Under the pieces are notes generated by a model that was not told the DNA's origin, ran no database searches, and saw only the letters and a list, made by a program, of their open reading frames with translations. Source: a virus (Duplodnaviria; Heunggongvirae; Uroviricota; Caudoviricetes). Taken from it: DNA of 3,997 nucleotides. Positions 1 to 3,997 of the stretch are shown here, piece by piece; position 1 is the stretch's first letter, and each line of letters opens with the position of its first letter. The stretch lies in IMG/VR virus record IMGVR_UViG_3300014970_000063. One strand, given 5' to 3'. Both the position numbers and the translations under genes were made by a program.

Positions 1-288
1 GCTATGGCTGCGCATTCGGGCCACCAGCAGAGGTGGCATTGCTTTTTCGATAGCTGGTAACAACGCCTGAATTTTTTTAACCGCATCAGGGGTGTCTTTC
101 TCCACCCAGCGGAAAATTTTCTGAGTATTGCGAGCCAGGGCTTCCGGATGGCTGTCGTCATACAGTTCCGGGAACGTCATTCCCAGCTCGAAATACGCTT
201 TGGTAATTTTCGCAGCCGGTACTTTTTCGCCGTCCGGATGCGCCCAGGCATTCATCGCCATGCGGATGTGTTCATGCTTGATTTTCAT
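1..288 (-). CDS. CII-like / YdaT-family prophage regulatory protein, partial (first 96 codons; 3' end lies beyond the window start)
   Basis: Minus-strand ATG at 288-286 opens a frame with no stop down to position 1, translating MKIKHEHIRMAMNAWAHPDGEKVPAAKITKAYFELGMTFPELYDDSHPEALARNTQKIFRWVEKDTPDAVKKIQALLPAIEKAMPPLLVARMRSHS. Its start overlaps the upstream Cro-like stop as ATGA (translational coupling). The N-terminus matches my recollection of Rac YdaT (MKIKHEHI...), and the position directly after a Cro-like gene is that of lambda cII / Rac ydaT. The plus-strand track ORFs 128..316 and 148..396 are its shadows. Confidence 0.7.
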   Translation of the reverse strand, partial: MKIKHEHIRMAMNAWAHPDGEKVPAAKITKAYFELGMTFPELYDDSHPEALARNTQKIFRWVEKDTPDAVKKIQALLPAIEKAMPPLLVARMRSHS

Positions 289-539
289 GAATCAACTCCC
301 ATCAGCTTTTTCGTAGTAGTTTTATTCCTGCCAATAGTTAAAATTGCATCGGCAGAAAATAATCCGTTTGATGCAAGAGCGATTTTTTCAGCGTAATTTG
401 TTTCGCCGGTATATTCTGTGCGAGGCAATTTTCCGTTATCCATCCATTTATAGATTGCTCTTTGGCTGACACCACAAACGTCGGCCACAACAGCAACGCG
501 AACGGTTTTGATTACATCTTCAAGTGTTTTCTGGTTCAT
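285..539 (-). CDS. Cro/YdaS/DicC-like small HTH regulator, 84 aa
   Basis: Internal Met 25 of track ORF 285..611(-) is preceded by a strong SD (minus strand GTGAGGGTGAT then ATG, plus coordinates 540-550). The product MNQKTLEDVIKTVRVAVVADVCGVSQRAIYKWMDNGKLPRTEYTGETNYAEKIALASNGLFSADAIL... has a helix-turn-helix and a P...TGET...IA pattern resembling DicC/YdaS-type Cro proteins. It is divergent from the repressor gene. The 24 codons upstream of Met 25 lie inside the promoter region and are taken as non-coding read-through. Confidence 0.8.
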   Translation of the reverse strand: MNQKTLEDVIKTVRVAVVADVCGVSQRAIYKWMDNGKLPRTEYTGETNYAEKIALASNGLFSADAILTIGRNKTTTKKLMGVDS

Positions 540-618
540 ATCACCCTCACAATGTGAACTTTGAGTACATGCTATAACAGAACTGACAGTACATTCAAGA
601 GCGAATATCATTGAACTT
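540..618. promoter_or_regulatory. Divergent promoter/operator region between the Cro-like and repressor genes (OR-like)
   Basis: 79-bp AT-rich intergenic region. It holds two copies of the 13-mer ACTnnnAGTACAT (558-570 and 582-594, cores 24 bp apart). Candidate rightward promoter: -35 CTGACA 583-588, 17-bp spacer, -10 TATCAT 606-611, with ATG at 619. Alternative rightward extended -10 TGcTATAAC 570-578. Candidate leftward promoter on the minus strand: -35 TTGAAT (plus 593-598) and extended -10 TGtTATAGC (plus 571-579). All promoter calls are by eye. Confidence 0.5.
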
Positions 619-1038
619 ATGGTTCATGAAGATAAAGCGCGTAAAGAGTTCGCCAGTAGGCTTGCGCTAGCCTGTGAAAACGCTGGTTATGAACAACATG
701 GAAGGCAGGCAGAAATTGCCCGTCGAATGAAATTAACACCAAAAGCGGTTAGCAAATGGTTTAATGGCGAAACAATTCCTCGCCGGGAGAAATTAAGGGA
801 ATTAGCAACACTAATAGGAACAACACCAACCTATCTTTTGGGAGAGGATACAGAAGAAAGTGGACAGGTACGTTTCTATCAGGAGTTAAATCCAAGACAA
901 AAAATCATCATTGACCTTCTGGACGAGCTCCCTGACAGTGAGACAGATGAACTTTTAAAAACTCTTGAAGAGAAAAAACAGAAGTACAATGCAATTTACG
1001 AAGAGTTAGCACGAAAGAAAAAACAAAAAGCCTCTTAA
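619..1038 (+). CDS. DicA/RacR-like XRE-family HTH repressor (prophage immunity repressor), 139 aa
   Basis: Contains a classic XRE helix-turn-helix (RQAEIARRMKLTPKAVSKWFNGETIPRREKLRELATLIGTTPTYLLGED). The C-terminal domain LNPRQKIIIDLLDELPDSETDELLKTLEEKKQKYNAIYEELARKKKQ parallels the DicA C-terminus as I recall it (LSPKELELLELFNALPESEQDTQLAEMRARVKNFNKLFEELLKARQ). No S24 peptidase domain is present. There is no SD before the ATG, which would fit a leaderless or near-leaderless mRNA. Confidence 0.85.
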   Translation: MVHEDKARKEFASRLALACENAGYEQHGRQAEIARRMKLTPKAVSKWFNGETIPRREKLRELATLIGTTPTYLLGEDTEESGQVRFYQELNPRQKIIIDLLDELPDSETDELLKTLEEKKQKYNAIYEELARKKKQKAS

Positions 1039-1101
1039 ACCAGCATAAATCCGGTAGCGCCTTCCTCCGGGTTTGTGCTTCACTTTATCCCATCTCATTT
1101 T

Positions 1102-1160
1102 TTTACACACAAAATGTACTAAAAGTACTTTACAACAATGAACGCAAAGTACATTATATG
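1102..1160 (+). promoter_or_regulatory. Early-operon promoter with operator repeats downstream of the repressor gene (OL / PdicB-like)
   Basis: T-tract 1096-1104 (UP-element-like), -35 TTTACA 1129-1134, -10 candidates CATTAT 1152-1157 or TACATT 1150-1155. Operator-like motifs: ATGTACT 1114-1120 (inverted copy), AGTACTT 1124-1130 and AGTACAT 1148-1154, the last two with the same 24-bp core spacing seen at 564/588. Confidence 0.5.
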
Positions 1161-1492: not shown

Positions 1493-2068
1493 ATGGATTT
1501 CGACACAATCATGGAAAAGGCTTACGAAGAATACTTCGAAGGTCTTGCCGAAGGCGAAGAAGCTCTCAGCTTCAGTGAGTTTAAACAGGCACTCAGAATA
1601 AGAATGTGCTCTCACAATGACGCGGAGCACAAATATGAGAAGCAAAATCAGACCGCAGAAAATTTTGTTCTGGAACCCGGAGAAACGCTTTTCAAAATTC
1701 CCGTTACGTGCCCCATTTGCGGTTTTACATCAGAAGAACTTGACGACTCCTGTAACAATCAGGAAACAACCAAGTATGTCGAAGATGATACCGAGTGCGC
1801 ACTAAGAACGATTATATCCACGAGTCCAAACTCCAGGACCAATAAATCTCACTTTGAGAGGGTGATTAATCCACTCCCCCAAACCAATAAAAAAGATGCC
1901 GGAGGACAAAAAACCCAATGGAACAACGGGATATCTGTCAAAAAAAGACGTTCCATTAAAGACAAACAACGCAGCGCCAACAACTGTAAGCGCTTTATAC
2001 CAGCAATCAATTTTCATGTTCTTAAGCGGATTTATTGGTGGTTGCGACATTGCTTAATGAATCCTTAA
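1493..2068 (+). CDS. Hypothetical protein, 191 aa; acidic N-terminal half with a Cys cluster; 3' half of uncertain coding status
   Basis: ATG at 1493 with SD AGGTGA 7 nt upstream, tightly coupled to the preceding ORF. Codons 1-103 (1493-1801) have G at first codon position in 39 of 103 codons (coding-like) and carry CPICG...DDSC...DTEC. Codons 104-191 (1802-2065) drop to 12 of 88 G at first position, are K/N/Q/R-rich and use rare codons (AGA, AGG, ATA, CTA, CGA). No stop occurs before TAA at 2066-2068. Confidence 0.5.
   Translation: MDFDTIMEKAYEEYFEGLAEGEEALSFSEFKQALRIRMCSHNDAEHKYEKQNQTAENFVLEPGETLFKIPVTCPICGFTSEELDDSCNNQETTKYVEDDTECALRTIISTSPNSRTNKSHFERVINPLPQTNKKDAGGQKTQWNNGISVKKRRSIKDKQRSANNCKRFIPAINFHVLKRIYWWLRHCLMNP
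1802..2050 (-). CDS. Candidate small two-transmembrane-segment membrane protein, 82 aa (or 71 aa from the ATG at 2017); may instead be a shadow ORF
   Basis: The minus-strand ORF is exactly codon-aligned antisense to the 3' half of ORF 1493..2068. Its translation has two hydrophobic segments (WYKALTVVGAALFVFNGTSFF and VVPLGFLSSGIFFIGLGEWI) and G at first codon position in 22 of 82 codons. An AAGGA SD lies 11 nt upstream of the ATG at 2050, inside the inverted repeat 2061-2089. This is a position-analogous ORF to Rac sieB, which I recall as being on the opposite strand; no homology is claimed. Confidence 0.3.
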   Translation of the reverse strand: MSQPPINPLKNMKIDCWYKALTVVGAALFVFNGTSFFDRYPVVPLGFLSSGIFFIGLGEWINHPLKVRFIGPGVWTRGYNRS

Positions 2069-2454: not shown

Positions 2455-2682
2455 ATGGGTGGATTCTCTGTATCCGAAGAGCAGTTAATTGCGCTGAAAG
2501 GAATAAAAAAAGGTACGTTAAAAAAGGTCCGGGAAAAATCGTTTATGGAAGGAAGGGAATATAAGCATGTCGCTCATGACGGTATGCCATGGGATAACAG
2601 TCCATGCTTTTACAACCTGGAAGAAATTGATCGCTGGATTGAGCGCCAGGCATCAGCAAGACCAAGACGTCATCTTACTTGA
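2455..2682 (+). CDS. xis: Excisionase-like protein (lambda Xis-type), 75 aa from the ATG at 2455; the maximal ORF starts at 2410 (90 aa)
   Basis: Sits immediately upstream of and co-oriented with the integrase gene. The core KGTLKKVREKSFMEGREYKHVAHDG resembles the lambda Xis region SLETVRRWVRECRIFPPPVKDGREYLFHES as recalled (shared GREY motif). Neither candidate start has a good SD. The ATG at 2410 lies inside tandem repeats that may be promoter elements, so 2455 is preferred. Confidence 0.6.
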   Translation: MGGFSVSEEQLIALKGIKKGTLKKVREKSFMEGREYKHVAHDGMPWDNSPCFYNLEEIDRWIERQASARPRRHLT

Positions 2683-2716: not shown

Positions 2717-3997
2717 ATGAAATATCCGACAGGCGTGGAAAACCATGGAGGGAAATTACGTATCTGGTTTGTTTATAAAGGCGTAAGAGTCAGGGAAAAT
2801 CTGGGGGTTCCTGACACAGCAAAAAACAGGCGCGTTGCAGGTGAACTACGCGCCTCTGTTTGTTACGCAATAAAAACTGGTGTTTTCGACTATGCAAAAC
2901 AGTTTCCCTCCTCACGCAATCTGGAAAAATTTGGTGAGGCCCGACAAGATTTAACCATAAAAGAACTGGCTGAAAAATTTCTGGCACTGAAAGAAACTGA
3001 AGTCGCCAAAACATCACTCAACACATACCGTGCCGTCATCAAAAATATCCTGAGCATAATCGGTGAAAAAAATCTTGCCTCATCGATTAATAAAGAAAAA
3101 TTACTGGAGGTTCGTAAAGAGCTACTGACTGGATACCAGATCCCCAAAAGTAACTATATTGTTACACAACCAGGGAGATCGGCTGTAACTGTAAATAATT
3201 ACATGACAAATCTTAACGCCGTGTTCCAGTTTGGTGTTGATAACGGTTACCTGGCAGATAACCCGTTTAAGGGGATCTCGCCATTAAAGGAATCAAGAAC
3301 CATTCCGGATCCTCTTTCGCGGGAGGAATTCATCCGTCTTATCGATGCGTGCAGAAATCAGCAAGCCAAAAATTTATGGTGTGTTTCTGTTTATACTGGC
3401 GTTCGCCCTGGTGAGCTGTGTGCACTTGGATGGGAGGACATAGATCTGAAAAATAGAACAATGATGATCAGGAGAAATTTAGCAAAAGACCGTTTCACGG
3501 TCCCAAAAACACAGGCGGGAACCAATCGGGTCATTCATCTTATTAAGCCAGCAATCGACGCTCTCCGGAGTCAGATGACATTAACGAGACTGAGCAAAGA
3601 GCATATCATTGATGTTCACCTCAGAGAGTATGGCAGAACAGAAAAACATAAATGCACCTTTGTTTTTCAACCTGAAGTGTCAGCGAGAGTAAAAAATTAT
3701 GGTGACCATTTTACCGTTGACTCAATAAGGCAGATGTGGGACGCAGCGATAAAACGTGCCGGACTCCGCCATCGAAAATCATATCAGTCGAGACATACTT
3801 ATGCCTGCTGGTCGCTGACAGCTGGTGCTAACCCGGCATTTATAGCAAACCAGATGGGCCATGCAGATGCGCAAATGGTATTTCAGGTATACGGAAAATG
3901 GATGTCTGAAAACAATAATGCACAGGTAGCTTTGTTAAATACACAGTTAAGCGAGTTTGCCCCAACCATGCCCCATAACGAAGCAATGAAAAATTAA
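2717..3997 (+). CDS. int: Tyrosine recombinase / phage integrase, IntR (Rac)-like, 426 aa
   Basis: Translation from the ATG at 2717 (MKYPTGVENHGGKLRIWFVYKGVRVRENLG...) parallels Rac IntR as recalled (MSKLPTGVEIRGRYIRIWF...). Catalytic signatures are present: box I TGVRPGELCALGWEDIDL, box II SRHTYACWSLTAGANPAFIANQMGH, and the tyrosine in QVYGKW. A purine-rich GAGAGAAG precedes the ATG at 2717. The track start at 2702 adds five residues with no SD. The gene ends at the last base of the window, so the attachment site is expected just beyond it. Confidence 0.92.
   Translation: MKYPTGVENHGGKLRIWFVYKGVRVRENLGVPDTAKNRRVAGELRASVCYAIKTGVFDYAKQFPSSRNLEKFGEARQDLTIKELAEKFLALKETEVAKTSLNTYRAVIKNILSIIGEKNLASSINKEKLLEVRKELLTGYQIPKSNYIVTQPGRSAVTVNNYMTNLNAVFQFGVDNGYLADNPFKGISPLKESRTIPDPLSREEFIRLIDACRNQQAKNLWCVSVYTGVRPGELCALGWEDIDLKNRTMMIRRNLAKDRFTVPKTQAGTNRVIHLIKPAIDALRSQMTLTRLSKEHIIDVHLREYGRTEKHKCTFVFQPEVSARVKNYGDHFTVDSIRQMWDAAIKRAGLRHRKSYQSRHTYACWSLTAGANPAFIANQMGHADAQMVFQVYGKWMSENNNAQVALLNTQLSEFAPTMPHNEAMKN

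What the first reader, a model, noticed from the sequence alone, without database searches (positions are those of the whole stretch)
558..1154. Five copies of a 13-bp motif ACTnnnAGTACAT in the two intergenic regions flanking the repressor gene, with conserved 24-bp spacing
Copies are at 558-570, 582-594, 1114-1126 (inverted), 1118-1130 (AGTACTT variant) and 1142-1154. Apart from the central GTAC, the core AGTACAT is not palindromic. The pairs 564/588 and 1124/1148 are both 24 bp centre to centre, like lambda OR1-OR2. I scanned the whole window for the heptamer and it is otherwise absent, except for one near-match AGTACAA at 983-989 inside the repressor gene. This looks like an OR/OL-type operator set for the DicA-like repressor, overlapping both divergent promoters and the promoter of the downstream operon.
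Basis: seen in the sequence. Interest (0 to 1): 0.5.

Follow-up and report, generated by a model that had tools for sequence, protein, structure and literature searches.

The report
HK022-type prophage operators, Qin-like switch
The repeated motif is real. It marks five repressor-binding sites of an ordinary lambda-style genetic switch, the type already described for phage HK022. Here the switch sits in a common E. coli prophage whose repressor has swapped its usual self-cleaving tail for a DicA-like one.

Summary
Each site is an imperfect 17-bp palindrome, ATGWACTnnnAGTWCAT, with a 15-bp core TGWACnnnnnGTWCA. Two of the "five copies" are the two halves of one site. A further site, 611-627, lies on the repressor start codon and was missed.

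The true set is OR1 554-570, OR2 578-594, OR3 611-627, OL2 1114-1130 and OL1 1138-1154.

Sequence, spacing (24 and 33 bp) and position relative to the repressor ATG match the annotated oR1-3 and oL1-2 of phage HK022. The PR and PL promoter hexamers match too. The divergent gene is an HK022 Cro homolog (60% identity). The repressor N-terminal domain is HK022-CI-like, but its C-terminal domain is DicA-like with no S24 peptidase.

The same layout recurs in most of 32 loci from Enterobacterales, Vibrio and Pasteurellaceae. K-12 Qin has a different HTH domain and carries a different operator at the same two places.

Verdict: the OR/OL interpretation is supported. This is a new member of a known kind and of modest interest. 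The module is in 1049 of 5426 complete E. coli genomes.

The parts
554..570 (.). OR1: GTGAACTTTGAGTACAT (15-bp core 555-569, perfect TGWACnnnnnGTWCA). It covers the predicted PR start region.
   Evidence: Same offset from the repressor ATG (17-mer start -65, centre -57) as HK022 oR1. Best O1 site has 2 or fewer mismatches in all 32 loci, at this offset in 22 of them.
578..594 (.). OR2: CAGAACTGACAGTACAT, 24 bp from OR1. It lies between the -35 and -10 of PR and contains the -35 of the predicted PRM.
   Evidence: Equivalent to HK022 oR2 (CGGAACTGATAGTACAG). Its departures from the palindrome (C.GAACTGA.AGT) are themselves conserved.
611..627 (.). OR3: TTGAACTTATGGTTCAT, 33 bp from OR2 and centred on the repressor ATG (619). 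Its 15-bp core is identical to HK022 oR1 and oR3.
   Evidence: A site at this spacing (56-58 bp from O1) in 29 of 32 loci at 4 or fewer mismatches.
1114..1130 (.). OL2: ATGTACTAAAAGTACTT. Its right end (CTT) supplies the first bases of the PL -35 hexamer.
   Evidence: HK022 oL has ATGTACTATTGGTACTT. The GTACTT variant is conserved in 18 of the 21 listed locus pairs; the other three read GTTCTT.
1138..1154 (.). OL1: ATGAACGCAAAGTACAT, 24 bp from OL2. It covers the spacer and the -10 of PL.
   Evidence: HK022 oL has ATGAACTTTAAGTACAT.
571..598 (-). PR (dicCp-equivalent), the leftward promoter of the cro-like gene: -35 TTGAAT (598..593), 16-nt spacer, -10 TATAGC (576..571).
   Evidence: Positional homology to the annotated pR -35 and -10 of HK022 (offset +125). 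Conserved columns. It fell below the consensus-scan threshold.
583..611 (+). Predicted PRM, the repressor maintenance promoter: CTGACA, 17 nt, TATCAT. The expected start is at about 618-619, which would give a leaderless repressor mRNA.
   Evidence: 10 of 12 match. The -10 pattern TAT.AT abutting OR3 and the CTGA.A inside OR2 are conserved in 30 loci. Pasteurellaceae versions instead carry AGGTGA after OR3 and an ATG about 19 nt further downstream. The start site is inferred, not mapped.
1129..1157 (+). PL (dicBp-equivalent), the promoter of the ydfA...DicF operon: TTTACA, 17 nt, CATTAT.
   Evidence: Identical in position to the annotated pL -35 and -10 of HK022. Conserved in 21 loci.
619..1038 (+). 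Repressor, 139 aa. The N-terminal five-helix XRE/HTH_3 domain is HK022-CI-like, with recognition helix 41-PKAVSKWF-48. The C-terminal helical domain is DicA-like. There is no S24 peptidase domain.
285..539 (-). Cro-like lytic regulator, 84 aa. RefSeq calls it 'AlpA family'. It is 60% identical to HK022 Cro.
1..288 (-). YdaT-family (CII-analog) gene, N-terminal 96 codons. It runs off the window.
278..295 (.). TTGATTTTCATGAATCAA, a perfect YdaT operator (TTGATTN6AATCAA) on the cro/ydaT junction. It is the probable PRE-equivalent control site.
   Evidence: The consensus and its junction position were footprinted in CP-933P (PMC9986795).
1336..2380 (+). The operon placed under PL/OL: ydfA (1336-1491), a ydfB-like ORF (1493-2068) and DicF sRNA (2329-2380).

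Best explanation
The motif marks five operators of a lambdoid immunity switch of the HK022 type.

**Binding sites.** Each operator is a 15-17 bp imperfect palindrome (core TGWACnnnnnGTWCA). The half-site centres are 10 bp apart, so a dimer of the 139-aa HTH repressor (619-1038) can place its two recognition helices (PKAVSKWF) in successive major grooves. Binding is inferred.

**OR region.** It lies between the divergent repressor and cro-like genes.
- OR1 and OR2 are 24 bp apart. They cover the start, -10, spacer and -35 edge of the leftward promoter PR. They therefore shut off the cro-like gene, the ydaT-like gene and the replication genes behind them.
- OR3 is 33 bp further on. It sits on the +1 and start codon of the repressor's own, probably leaderless, transcript and should give negative autoregulation.

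**OL region.** It lies downstream of the repressor gene. OL2 and OL1 are 24 bp apart and bracket the -35 and -10 of PL, the dicBp equivalent. They silence ydfA, the ydfB-like ORF and DicF, and in related strains also dicB.

**Cro.** The HK022-Cro homolog (285-539) is expected to use the same sites, giving a bistable switch.

**Induction.** The repressor's C-terminal domain is DicA-like and has no S24 autoprotease. Induction is therefore expected to be independent of RecA, through an antirepressor or a Cro-driven flip as described for K-12 DicA.

**Shown here:** site statistics, homology to annotated HK022 operators and promoters, conservation, and the domain make-up of the proteins.
**Inferred:** binding, cooperativity, the PRM start site, and the mode of induction.
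For: - **Statistics.** 5 sites at 2 or fewer mismatches against 0.07 expected, with none at 3 mismatches.
- **Homology to HK022.** Operator centres at -57, -33 and 0 from the repressor ATG are identical to the annotated HK022 and HK75 oR1-3. The oL pair and the pR and pL hexamers coincide. The OR3 core is identical to HK022 oR1 and oR3.
- **Regulators.** The Cro-like protein is 60% identical to HK022 Cro (E 1e-33). The repressor N-terminal domain is 47% identical over 99 aa, with a near-identical recognition helix.
- **Conservation.**
  - 32 loci (162 kb) hold 93 sites at 2 or fewer mismatches against 2.45 expected.
  - T2, G3, A5, C6 and G12, T13, C15, A16 of OR1 are invariant in 32 of 32, while the spacers vary.
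  - The 24+33 bp spacing is kept even where the ATG has moved (Pasteurellaceae).
  - The OL pair with its embedded promoter is found in 21 loci.
- **Contrasts.**
  - K-12 Qin has a different HTH domain. It repeats another operator (TTAGTCATAACTAA-type) at the same two places and lacks this motif (PMC3441716; PMC10448788).
  - 933W CI has S41 in place of P41 and uses CGWAC half-sites in the same layout (PMC3317979).
- **Precedent.** HK022 CI binds adjacent operators cooperatively and loops OL to OR (PMC8053113).
- **Promoter scans.** They place PRM and PL on the operators.
Against: - No binding or expression data exist for this element.
- The comparison loci were retrieved with peptide patterns that include TPKAVSKW. 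All of them therefore share the recognition helix by construction. Conservation of the sites is consistent with the model but is not an independent covariation test.
- OR2 is centred at about -33 of the predicted PRM and overlaps its -35. This differs from lambda (about -42), so activation of PRM by OR2-bound repressor cannot be assumed.
- The C-terminal domain is unrelated to the S24 domain that mediates HK022 CI cooperativity, so cooperative binding at the 24-bp pairs is unproven.
- 933W repressor has the same layout and does not bind cooperatively (PMC5977221).
- The accessory HK022 operators OL3 and OFR are absent.
Confidence: 0.9

Rival explanations
1. The sites are recognised only by the Cro-like protein (285-539), and the 139-aa repressor acts elsewhere or not at all.
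For: The Cro homolog is conserved alongside the sites as consistently as the repressor N-terminal domain. The computation therefore cannot assign the sites to one protein.
Against: - In HK022, 933W and lambda, both CI and Cro use the same operators (PMC8053113, PMC3317979, PMC8630535 for the analogous CP-933P).
- The repressor recognition helix is near-identical to that of HK022 CI.
- 933W CI residues K42 and K46, which are modelled to contact, or were mutated to test contact with, the shared G-W-A-C core, are conserved here.
Confidence: 0.03
2. The repeats are decayed relics in a cryptic prophage. They are recognisable by descent but no longer functional.
For: The window is a degraded Qin-type prophage. 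ydfB is annotated as a pseudogene, there are exonuclease remnants in the related strain, and the window carries a further 1.07-kb deletion.
Against: - Both regulator genes are intact.
- All five sites keep the invariant half-site bases.
- The same module is 97.8% identical in the complete genome of phage Tritos.
- It is held in 1049 of 5426 complete E. coli genomes at 95-100% identity.
- Loss of repression would release DicF, and DicB where present. K-12 dicA shows this is selected against (PMC10448788).
Confidence: 0.04
3. The repeated motif is a by-product of promoter elements or of chance and has no dedicated binding protein.
For: The sites overlap the -35 and -10 hexamers. Two deviations from the palindrome are explained by promoter hexamers: GTACTT makes TTTACA, and CTGACA lies inside OR2.
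Against: - Chance expectation is 0.07-0.17 against 5 observed.
- The invariant bases (TG.AC / GT.CA) are not promoter consensus.
- OR3 extends into the coding sequence.
- Identical half-sites recur at three different promoters and across distant taxa, while the surrounding promoter spacers vary.
Confidence: 0.02
4. The sites are targets of the YdaT-like (CII-analog) protein.
For: A ydaT-family gene lies in the leftward operon.
Against: - YdaT of CP-933P recognises TTGATTN6AATCAA (PMC9986795). That motif is present separately at 278-295.
- HK022 and most other loci that carry the sites have cII or other genes in place of ydaT.
Confidence: 0.01

Closest known systems
Phage HK022 immunity region: CI, Cro, oR1-3, oL1-2(3), pR, pL (GenBank X16093.1; HK75 NC_016160.1). 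HK022 CI binds cooperatively and loops OL to OR (Carlson & Little 1993, as cited in PMC8053113).
   Same: - Same 15-bp operator core, TGWACnnnnnGTWCA. The OR3 core is identical to HK022 oR1 and oR3.
- Same 24-bp and 33-bp spacings.
- Same offsets from the repressor ATG, with OR3 centred on the start codon.
- Same positions for the pR and pL hexamers.
- Homologous Cro (60% identity) and homologous CI DNA-binding domain (47-58% identity, recognition helix PKAVSKWF against PKAISKWF).
   Different: - The repressor C-terminal domain is DicA-like and helical, 139 aa in total. It is not an S24 autoprotease (HK022 CI is 235 aa).
- OL3 (53 bp upstream of OL2) and OFR (beyond cro) are absent.
- The gene after cro is ydaT-type with its own operator, not cII.
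- No nun and no put homology downstream of PL.
- PL drives the ydfA-DicF(-dicB) operon.
E. coli K-12 Qin prophage DicA/DicC switch with operators Oc, Om and Oa and the dicBp operators (Bejar et al. 1986/1988; PMC3441716; PMC10448788)
   Same: - Same chromosomal prophage type and insertion site (next to rspB).
- Same layout: divergent repressor and cro-like genes, then a repressed promoter for ydfA-dicF-dicB.
- Homologous short non-cleavable repressor (29% identity over 112 aa, including the C-terminal domain).
- DNA homology resumes at window 1312, just upstream of ydfA.
   Different: - The HTH domain has a different specificity, and the operator is different (Oc = TTGTTAGTCATAACTAACAA).
- The window motif is absent from K-12 Qin.
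- dicC is unrelated to the HK022-Cro-like gene here.
- K-12 has no ydaT.
Stx phage 933W / phi24B immunity region (OR1-3, OL1-2; PMC3317979, PMC5977221; EF517298.1)
   Same: - Homologous CI N-terminal domain (about 51% identity).
- Same 24+33 bp OR layout, with OR3 on the cI start.
- Only two OL sites.
- 15-bp symmetric operator with the critical G-W-A-C at positions 2-5.
   Different: - The outer base is C, not T (CGWAC).
- The recognition helix starts SKG rather than PKA.
- S24-type C-terminal domain.
- Binding to OR1 and OR2 is reported as non-cooperative.
CP-933P (Rac-like) PaaR2 / YdaS / YdaT switch (PMC8630535, PMC9986795)
   Same: - Cryptic-prophage switch with OR and OL sets and a leaderless repressor gene.
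- YdaT serves as the CII analog.
- Its TTGATTN6AATCAA operator sits at the cro-analog/ydaT junction, as at window 278-295.
   Different: - Different repressor and different operator repeats (GTTTAGTAA-type 18-bp palindromes).
- A toxin-antitoxin pair lies downstream of the repressor.

Membership tests
Lambdoid OR/OL operator set | Several similar 15-20 bp imperfect palindromes, more frequent than chance | tested here: met
   5 sites at 2 or fewer mismatches to ATGWACTNNNAGTWCAT against 0.07 expected, with a gap in the mismatch distribution.
Lambdoid OR/OL operator set | Tripartite OR between the divergent repressor and cro genes, overlapping PR and PRM | tested here: met
   Sites at 554-570, 578-594 and 611-627 lie between the genes at 285-539 (-) and 619-1038 (+). 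They overlap PR by homology to annotated HK022 pR and overlap the predicted PRM.
Lambdoid OR/OL operator set | A second operator cluster downstream of the repressor gene on the promoter of the early-left operon | tested here: met
   Sites 1114-1130 and 1138-1154 bracket TTTACA-17-CATTAT. They are homologous to HK022 oL and pL.
Lambdoid OR/OL operator set | Repressor and Cro physically bind the sites and regulate the promoters | not testable with these tools
   Needs EMSA, footprinting or reporter assays.
HK022 immunity type | Operator sequence and spacing as in HK022 oR1-3 and oL1-2 | tested here: met
   Direct alignment. The OR3 core is identical. Spacings are 24 and 33 bp, and the offsets from the ATG are identical.
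HK022 immunity type | CI-type DNA-binding domain and Cro homologous to those of HK022 | tested here: met
HK022 immunity type | Repressor carries the S24 (LexA-like) autocleavage and oligomerisation domain | tested here: not met
   Pfam finds only HTH domains. The protein is 139 aa and its C-terminal domain aligns to K-12 DicA. S24-bearing relatives are 221-252 aa.
HK022 immunity type | Accessory operators OL3 and OFR | tested here: not met
   No site at 4 or fewer mismatches near 1061 or left of cro. These sites are present in HK022-like loci at +714 and -332.
HK022 immunity type | Functional homoimmunity with HK022 | not testable with these tools
   Predicted from the near-identical recognition helix and shared operator cores. 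Needs plating and repression tests.
K-12 Qin DicA/DicC switch | DicA operator sequence (Oc-type TTGTTAGTCATAACTAACAA) | tested here: not met
   The K-12 intergenic regions carry TTAGTCATAACTAA-type repeats, and the window motif has no hit at 2 or fewer mismatches in 8 kb of K-12 Qin.
K-12 Qin DicA/DicC switch | Short DicA-type repressor upstream of a repressed ydfA-dicF(-dicB) operon in a Qin-type prophage | tested here: met

The most novel reading that the evidence does not exclude
The switch is a natural domain-swap hybrid. It joins an HK022-specificity DNA-binding domain and operator set to a DicA-type, RecA-insensitive C-terminal domain and a YdaT-type CII analog. If so:
- The resident Qin-like prophage, present in about 19% of complete E. 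coli genomes, would give SOS-proof immunity against HK022-immunity phages.
- Conversely, Cro or an antirepressor from such incoming phages could derepress the host-toxic DicF/DicB operon.
- It would also show that 24-bp paired-operator architecture can be served by an unrelated oligomerisation domain.
Probability: 0.4. Interest if true: 0.45.

Novelty: new member of a known kind. Interest (0 to 1): 0.3.

Why it matters
- **A usable map.** The work gives a precise operator and promoter map for an uncharacterised immunity type. That type controls the DicF sRNA, and DicB in related strains, in roughly one in five sequenced E. coli, including O157:H7 strains.
- **Mosaic evolution of the switch.** The operators, the Cro gene and the repressor DNA-binding domain travel together as one unit from Enterobacterales to Vibrio and Pasteurellaceae. 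The repressor's signal-sensing C-terminal half and the CII-analog gene are exchanged.
- **Testable predictions.** The element should be cross-immune with HK022 and should not respond to SOS induction.
- **Limits.** The mechanism is textbook, so the finding is useful for annotation but not surprising.

Tried and rejected
- **Third OL site or OFR-like site.** None in the window at 4 or fewer mismatches. None in the 17-kb ET896 locus at 3 or fewer mismatches to the stricter ATGTACTNNNAGTACAT.
- **AGTACAA at 983-989.** It has no partner half-site and is chance.
- **put-like antiterminator RNA downstream of PL, as in HK022.**
  - No sequence homology beyond the -10.
  - No unusual fold (z = 0.16).
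  - Rfam finds only DicF.
- **The minus-strand 'terminator' at 1152..1125.** This is just the two OL sites pairing with each other.
- **Rem antirepressor.** The small ORF beside hokD in strain ET896 has no similarity to K-12 Rem. No antirepressor was identified.
- **Fold search with the AlphaFold model (pLDDT 82.8).** It found only generic XRE/HTH_3 domains (P22 C2, ImmR, SinR and others). Nothing informative turned up for the C-terminal domain.
- **Literature.** Nothing found on phage Tritos or on an HK022/DicA hybrid repressor. The primary HK022 operator papers are not in the library. HK022 facts therefore rest on GenBank feature tables and on PMC8053113.
- **Likely contaminated loci.** Two retrieved loci carry unlikely taxon labels: a 1-kb 'Streptomyces' contig (L013) and a 'Pseudooceanicola' MAG (L032). 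They are probably contamination or mis-binning. No taxonomic conclusion was drawn from either.

Full report
**1. What the window is**

The window is the immunity-to-integrase end of a Qin-type lambdoid prophage of E. coli.
- It matches strain ET896 at 100% in two pieces, next to rspB.
- The genes are:
  - a ydaT-family gene (1-288, minus strand);
  - a cro-like HTH gene (285-539, minus strand);
  - a 139-aa HTH repressor (619-1038, plus strand);
  - ydfA (1336-1491);
  - a ydfB-like ORF (1493-2068);
  - DicF sRNA (2329-2380; Rfam 72.5 bits);
  - an excisionase (to 2682);
  - an integrase (2717-3997).

**2. Checking the observation**

- ACTNNNAGTACAT with up to 1 mismatch occurs exactly at the five reported places. 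Chance expectation is 0.17, and no shuffle of 200 reached 5.
- Exact AGTACAT occurs only at those places.
- Extending each copy to the left shows the real unit: an imperfect 17-bp palindrome, ATGWACTnnnAGTWCAT.
- The copies at 1114-1126 (-) and 1118-1130 (+) are the two arms of one site.
- 1142-1154 reads ACG, not ACT.
- With the 17-mer and up to 2 mismatches there are five hits: 554-570, 578-594, 611-627, 1114-1130 and 1138-1154. Chance expectation is 0.07.
- No position has 3 mismatches and only three have 4.
- The additional site, 611-627 (TTGAACTTATGGTTCAT), is centred on the repressor ATG at 619.
- The near-match at 983 is noise.

**3. What it is**

*The repressor is a two-part hybrid.*
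- Its first ~80 residues recur at 44-72% identity in S24-peptidase (CI/LexA-type) repressors of 195-240 aa. The stretch TPKAVSKWFNG is invariant.
- tblastn against phages finds HK022 CI (58%) and 933W CI (51%).

*The operators match HK022.* The HK022 and HK75 GenBank records annotate oR1/oR2/oR3, oL1/oL2, pR and pL. Placed side by side, window and HK022 agree base for base in layout.

| Feature | Window | HK022 |
|---|---|---|
| Operator centres from the repressor ATG | -57, -33, 0 | -57, -33, 0 |
| OR1 | GTGAACTTTGAGTACAT | GTGAACTTATGGTTCAT |
| OR2 | CAGAACTGACAGTACAT | CGGAACTGATAGTACAG |
| OR3 | TTGAACTTATGGTTCAT | TTGAACTTATGGTTCAA |
| OL2, PL -35, OL1 | ATGTACTAAAAGTACTTTACAACAATGAACGCAAAGTACAT | ATGTACTATTGGTACTTTACATTAATGAACTTTAAGTACAT |

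*The flanking regulators match too.*
- The divergent gene is an HK022 Cro homolog (60% identity, E 1e-33).
- The repressor C-terminal half aligns with K-12 DicA (29% over 112 aa, E 5e-15).
- It has no S24 domain.
- An AlphaFold model (pLDDT 82.8) shows a five-helix XRE domain followed by three helices, the last one long (106-138). Structure search returns only generic XRE domains.

**4. Conservation**

- A genome scan returned 35 loci. In 32 non-redundant loci (162 kb) there are 93 sites at 2 or fewer mismatches against 2.45 expected. 48 of them lie within 100 bp upstream of the repressor ATG.
- In OR1 the bases T2, G3, A5, C6 and G12, T13, C15, A16 are invariant in 32 of 32 loci, while the central triplet and the flanks vary.
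- The 24+33 bp spacing holds in most loci. In Pasteurellaceae the ATG lies about 19 nt further downstream and an AGGTGA Shine-Dalgarno follows OR3.
- The OL pair with its embedded promoter appears in 21 loci.
- **Caveat.** The scan used peptide patterns that include TPKAVSKW, so all loci share the recognition helix by construction.

Independent contrasts:
- K-12 Qin has a different HTH domain. It lacks the motif and repeats its own operator (Oc-type TTAGTCATAACTAA) in both equivalent intergenic regions. Homology with the window resumes only at 1312.
- 933W/phi24B has a recognition helix that starts SKG. It uses CGWAC half-sites in the same layout. Positions 2-5 (G-W-A-C) have been shown experimentally to be critical (PMC3317979).

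**5. How it most likely works**

- **PR.** By homology to the annotated HK022 promoters, PR is TTGAAT (598..593), 16 nt, TATAGC (576..571). OR1 covers its start and OR2 covers its spacer and -35 edge.
- **PL.** It is TTTACA (1129-1134), 17 nt, CATTAT (1152-1157), bracketed by OL2 and OL1.
- **PRM.**
  - The repressor's own promoter is predicted as CTGACA (583-588), 17 nt, TATCAT (606-611).
  - Both hexamer patterns are conserved across loci.
  - The start would fall at 618-619, giving a leaderless mRNA as in lambda cI and paaR2 (PMC8630535).
  - OR3 would then sit on +1 and give autorepression. This matches the role of OR3 in 933W (PMC5977221).
- **An open point.** OR2 overlaps the predicted PRM -35 (centre about -33), unlike lambda. 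I do not assume activation.
- **Cooperativity and looping.** HK022 CI binds adjacent operators cooperatively and loops OL to OR (PMC8053113). Whether the DicA-type C-terminal domain does the same is unknown.
- **Induction.** With no autoprotease, induction should be RecA-independent, as reported for K-12 DicA through the Rem antirepressor or a DicC-dependent flip (PMC10448788). I found no Rem homolog in the related strain.

**6. Comparison and novelty**

- The element works like, and by sequence belongs to, the HK022 operator/Cro/CI-N-terminal-domain family.
- It fails two HK022 features: the S24 domain, and the accessory OL3 and OFR sites.
- It shares with K-12 Qin the DicA-type C-terminal domain, the regulated ydfA-DicF operon and the chromosomal context, but not the operator sequence.
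- It shares with CP-933P a YdaT-type CII analog and that protein's operator.
- It is therefore a mosaic member of a known kind. I found no paper describing this particular hybrid.
- The module (285-1165) is in 1049 of 5426 complete E. coli genomes and in the complete genome of phage Tritos.

**7. Verdict**

- Novelty: new member of a known kind.
- Interest: about 0.3.

Noticed in passing
window 278-295: TTGATTTTCATGAATCAA is a perfect match to the YdaT operator consensus TTGATTN6AATCAA. That consensus was footprinted in CP-933P at the ydaS/ydaT junction (PMC9986795). Here it sits on the stop of the cro-like gene and the ATG of the ydaT-like gene. It is probably the PRE-equivalent control site.
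   Followed up: partly
window 2470-2476, compared with L001 8477-9549: Relative to strain ET896 the window lacks about 1.07 kb. The missing stretch holds dicB, a ydfD remnant, an exonuclease remnant and the first ~13 codons of xis. The junction is a 7-bp microhomology, GTATCCG. No complete E. coli genome in the collection has the window contiguous. DicF is kept, but the DicB division inhibitor is gone.
   Followed up: partly
window 1493-2068 (+): A 191-aa ORF has a ydfB-like N-terminus and matches phrog_35040 over its full length (E 3e-139). RefSeq annotates only a truncated ydfB pseudogene here. This ~590-bp stretch replaces the ydfB end and ydfC of K-12. Function unknown.
   Followed up: partly
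window 619-627, and the repressor N-termini in L004-L034: The conserved N-terminus Met-Val-His/Gln of these repressors is encoded by the right half-site of OR3 (ATG GTT/GTA CAT/CAA). The operator and the first three codons therefore constrain each other. In Pasteurellaceae, where OR3 lies upstream of the ATG, the proteins start MIT or MNE instead.
   Followed up: partly
L005, L011, L012, L004 (about 53 bp upstream of OL2); L012, L016, L017, L038, L040 (about -332 from the repressor ATG): The S24-type relatives keep additional sites at the positions of HK022 OL3 and OFR. The short DicA-type version in the window has neither. The recombination joint of the C-terminal-domain swap therefore lies between the OL3 position and OL2.
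   Followed up: no
L032 and L034, repressor ORFs at 2501: Two other short repressors (122 and 149 aa) carry the same recognition helix and the same operators. Their C-terminal tails resemble neither DicA nor S24. This suggests repeated replacement of the C-terminal domain. The taxon label of L032 is doubtful.
   Followed up: no
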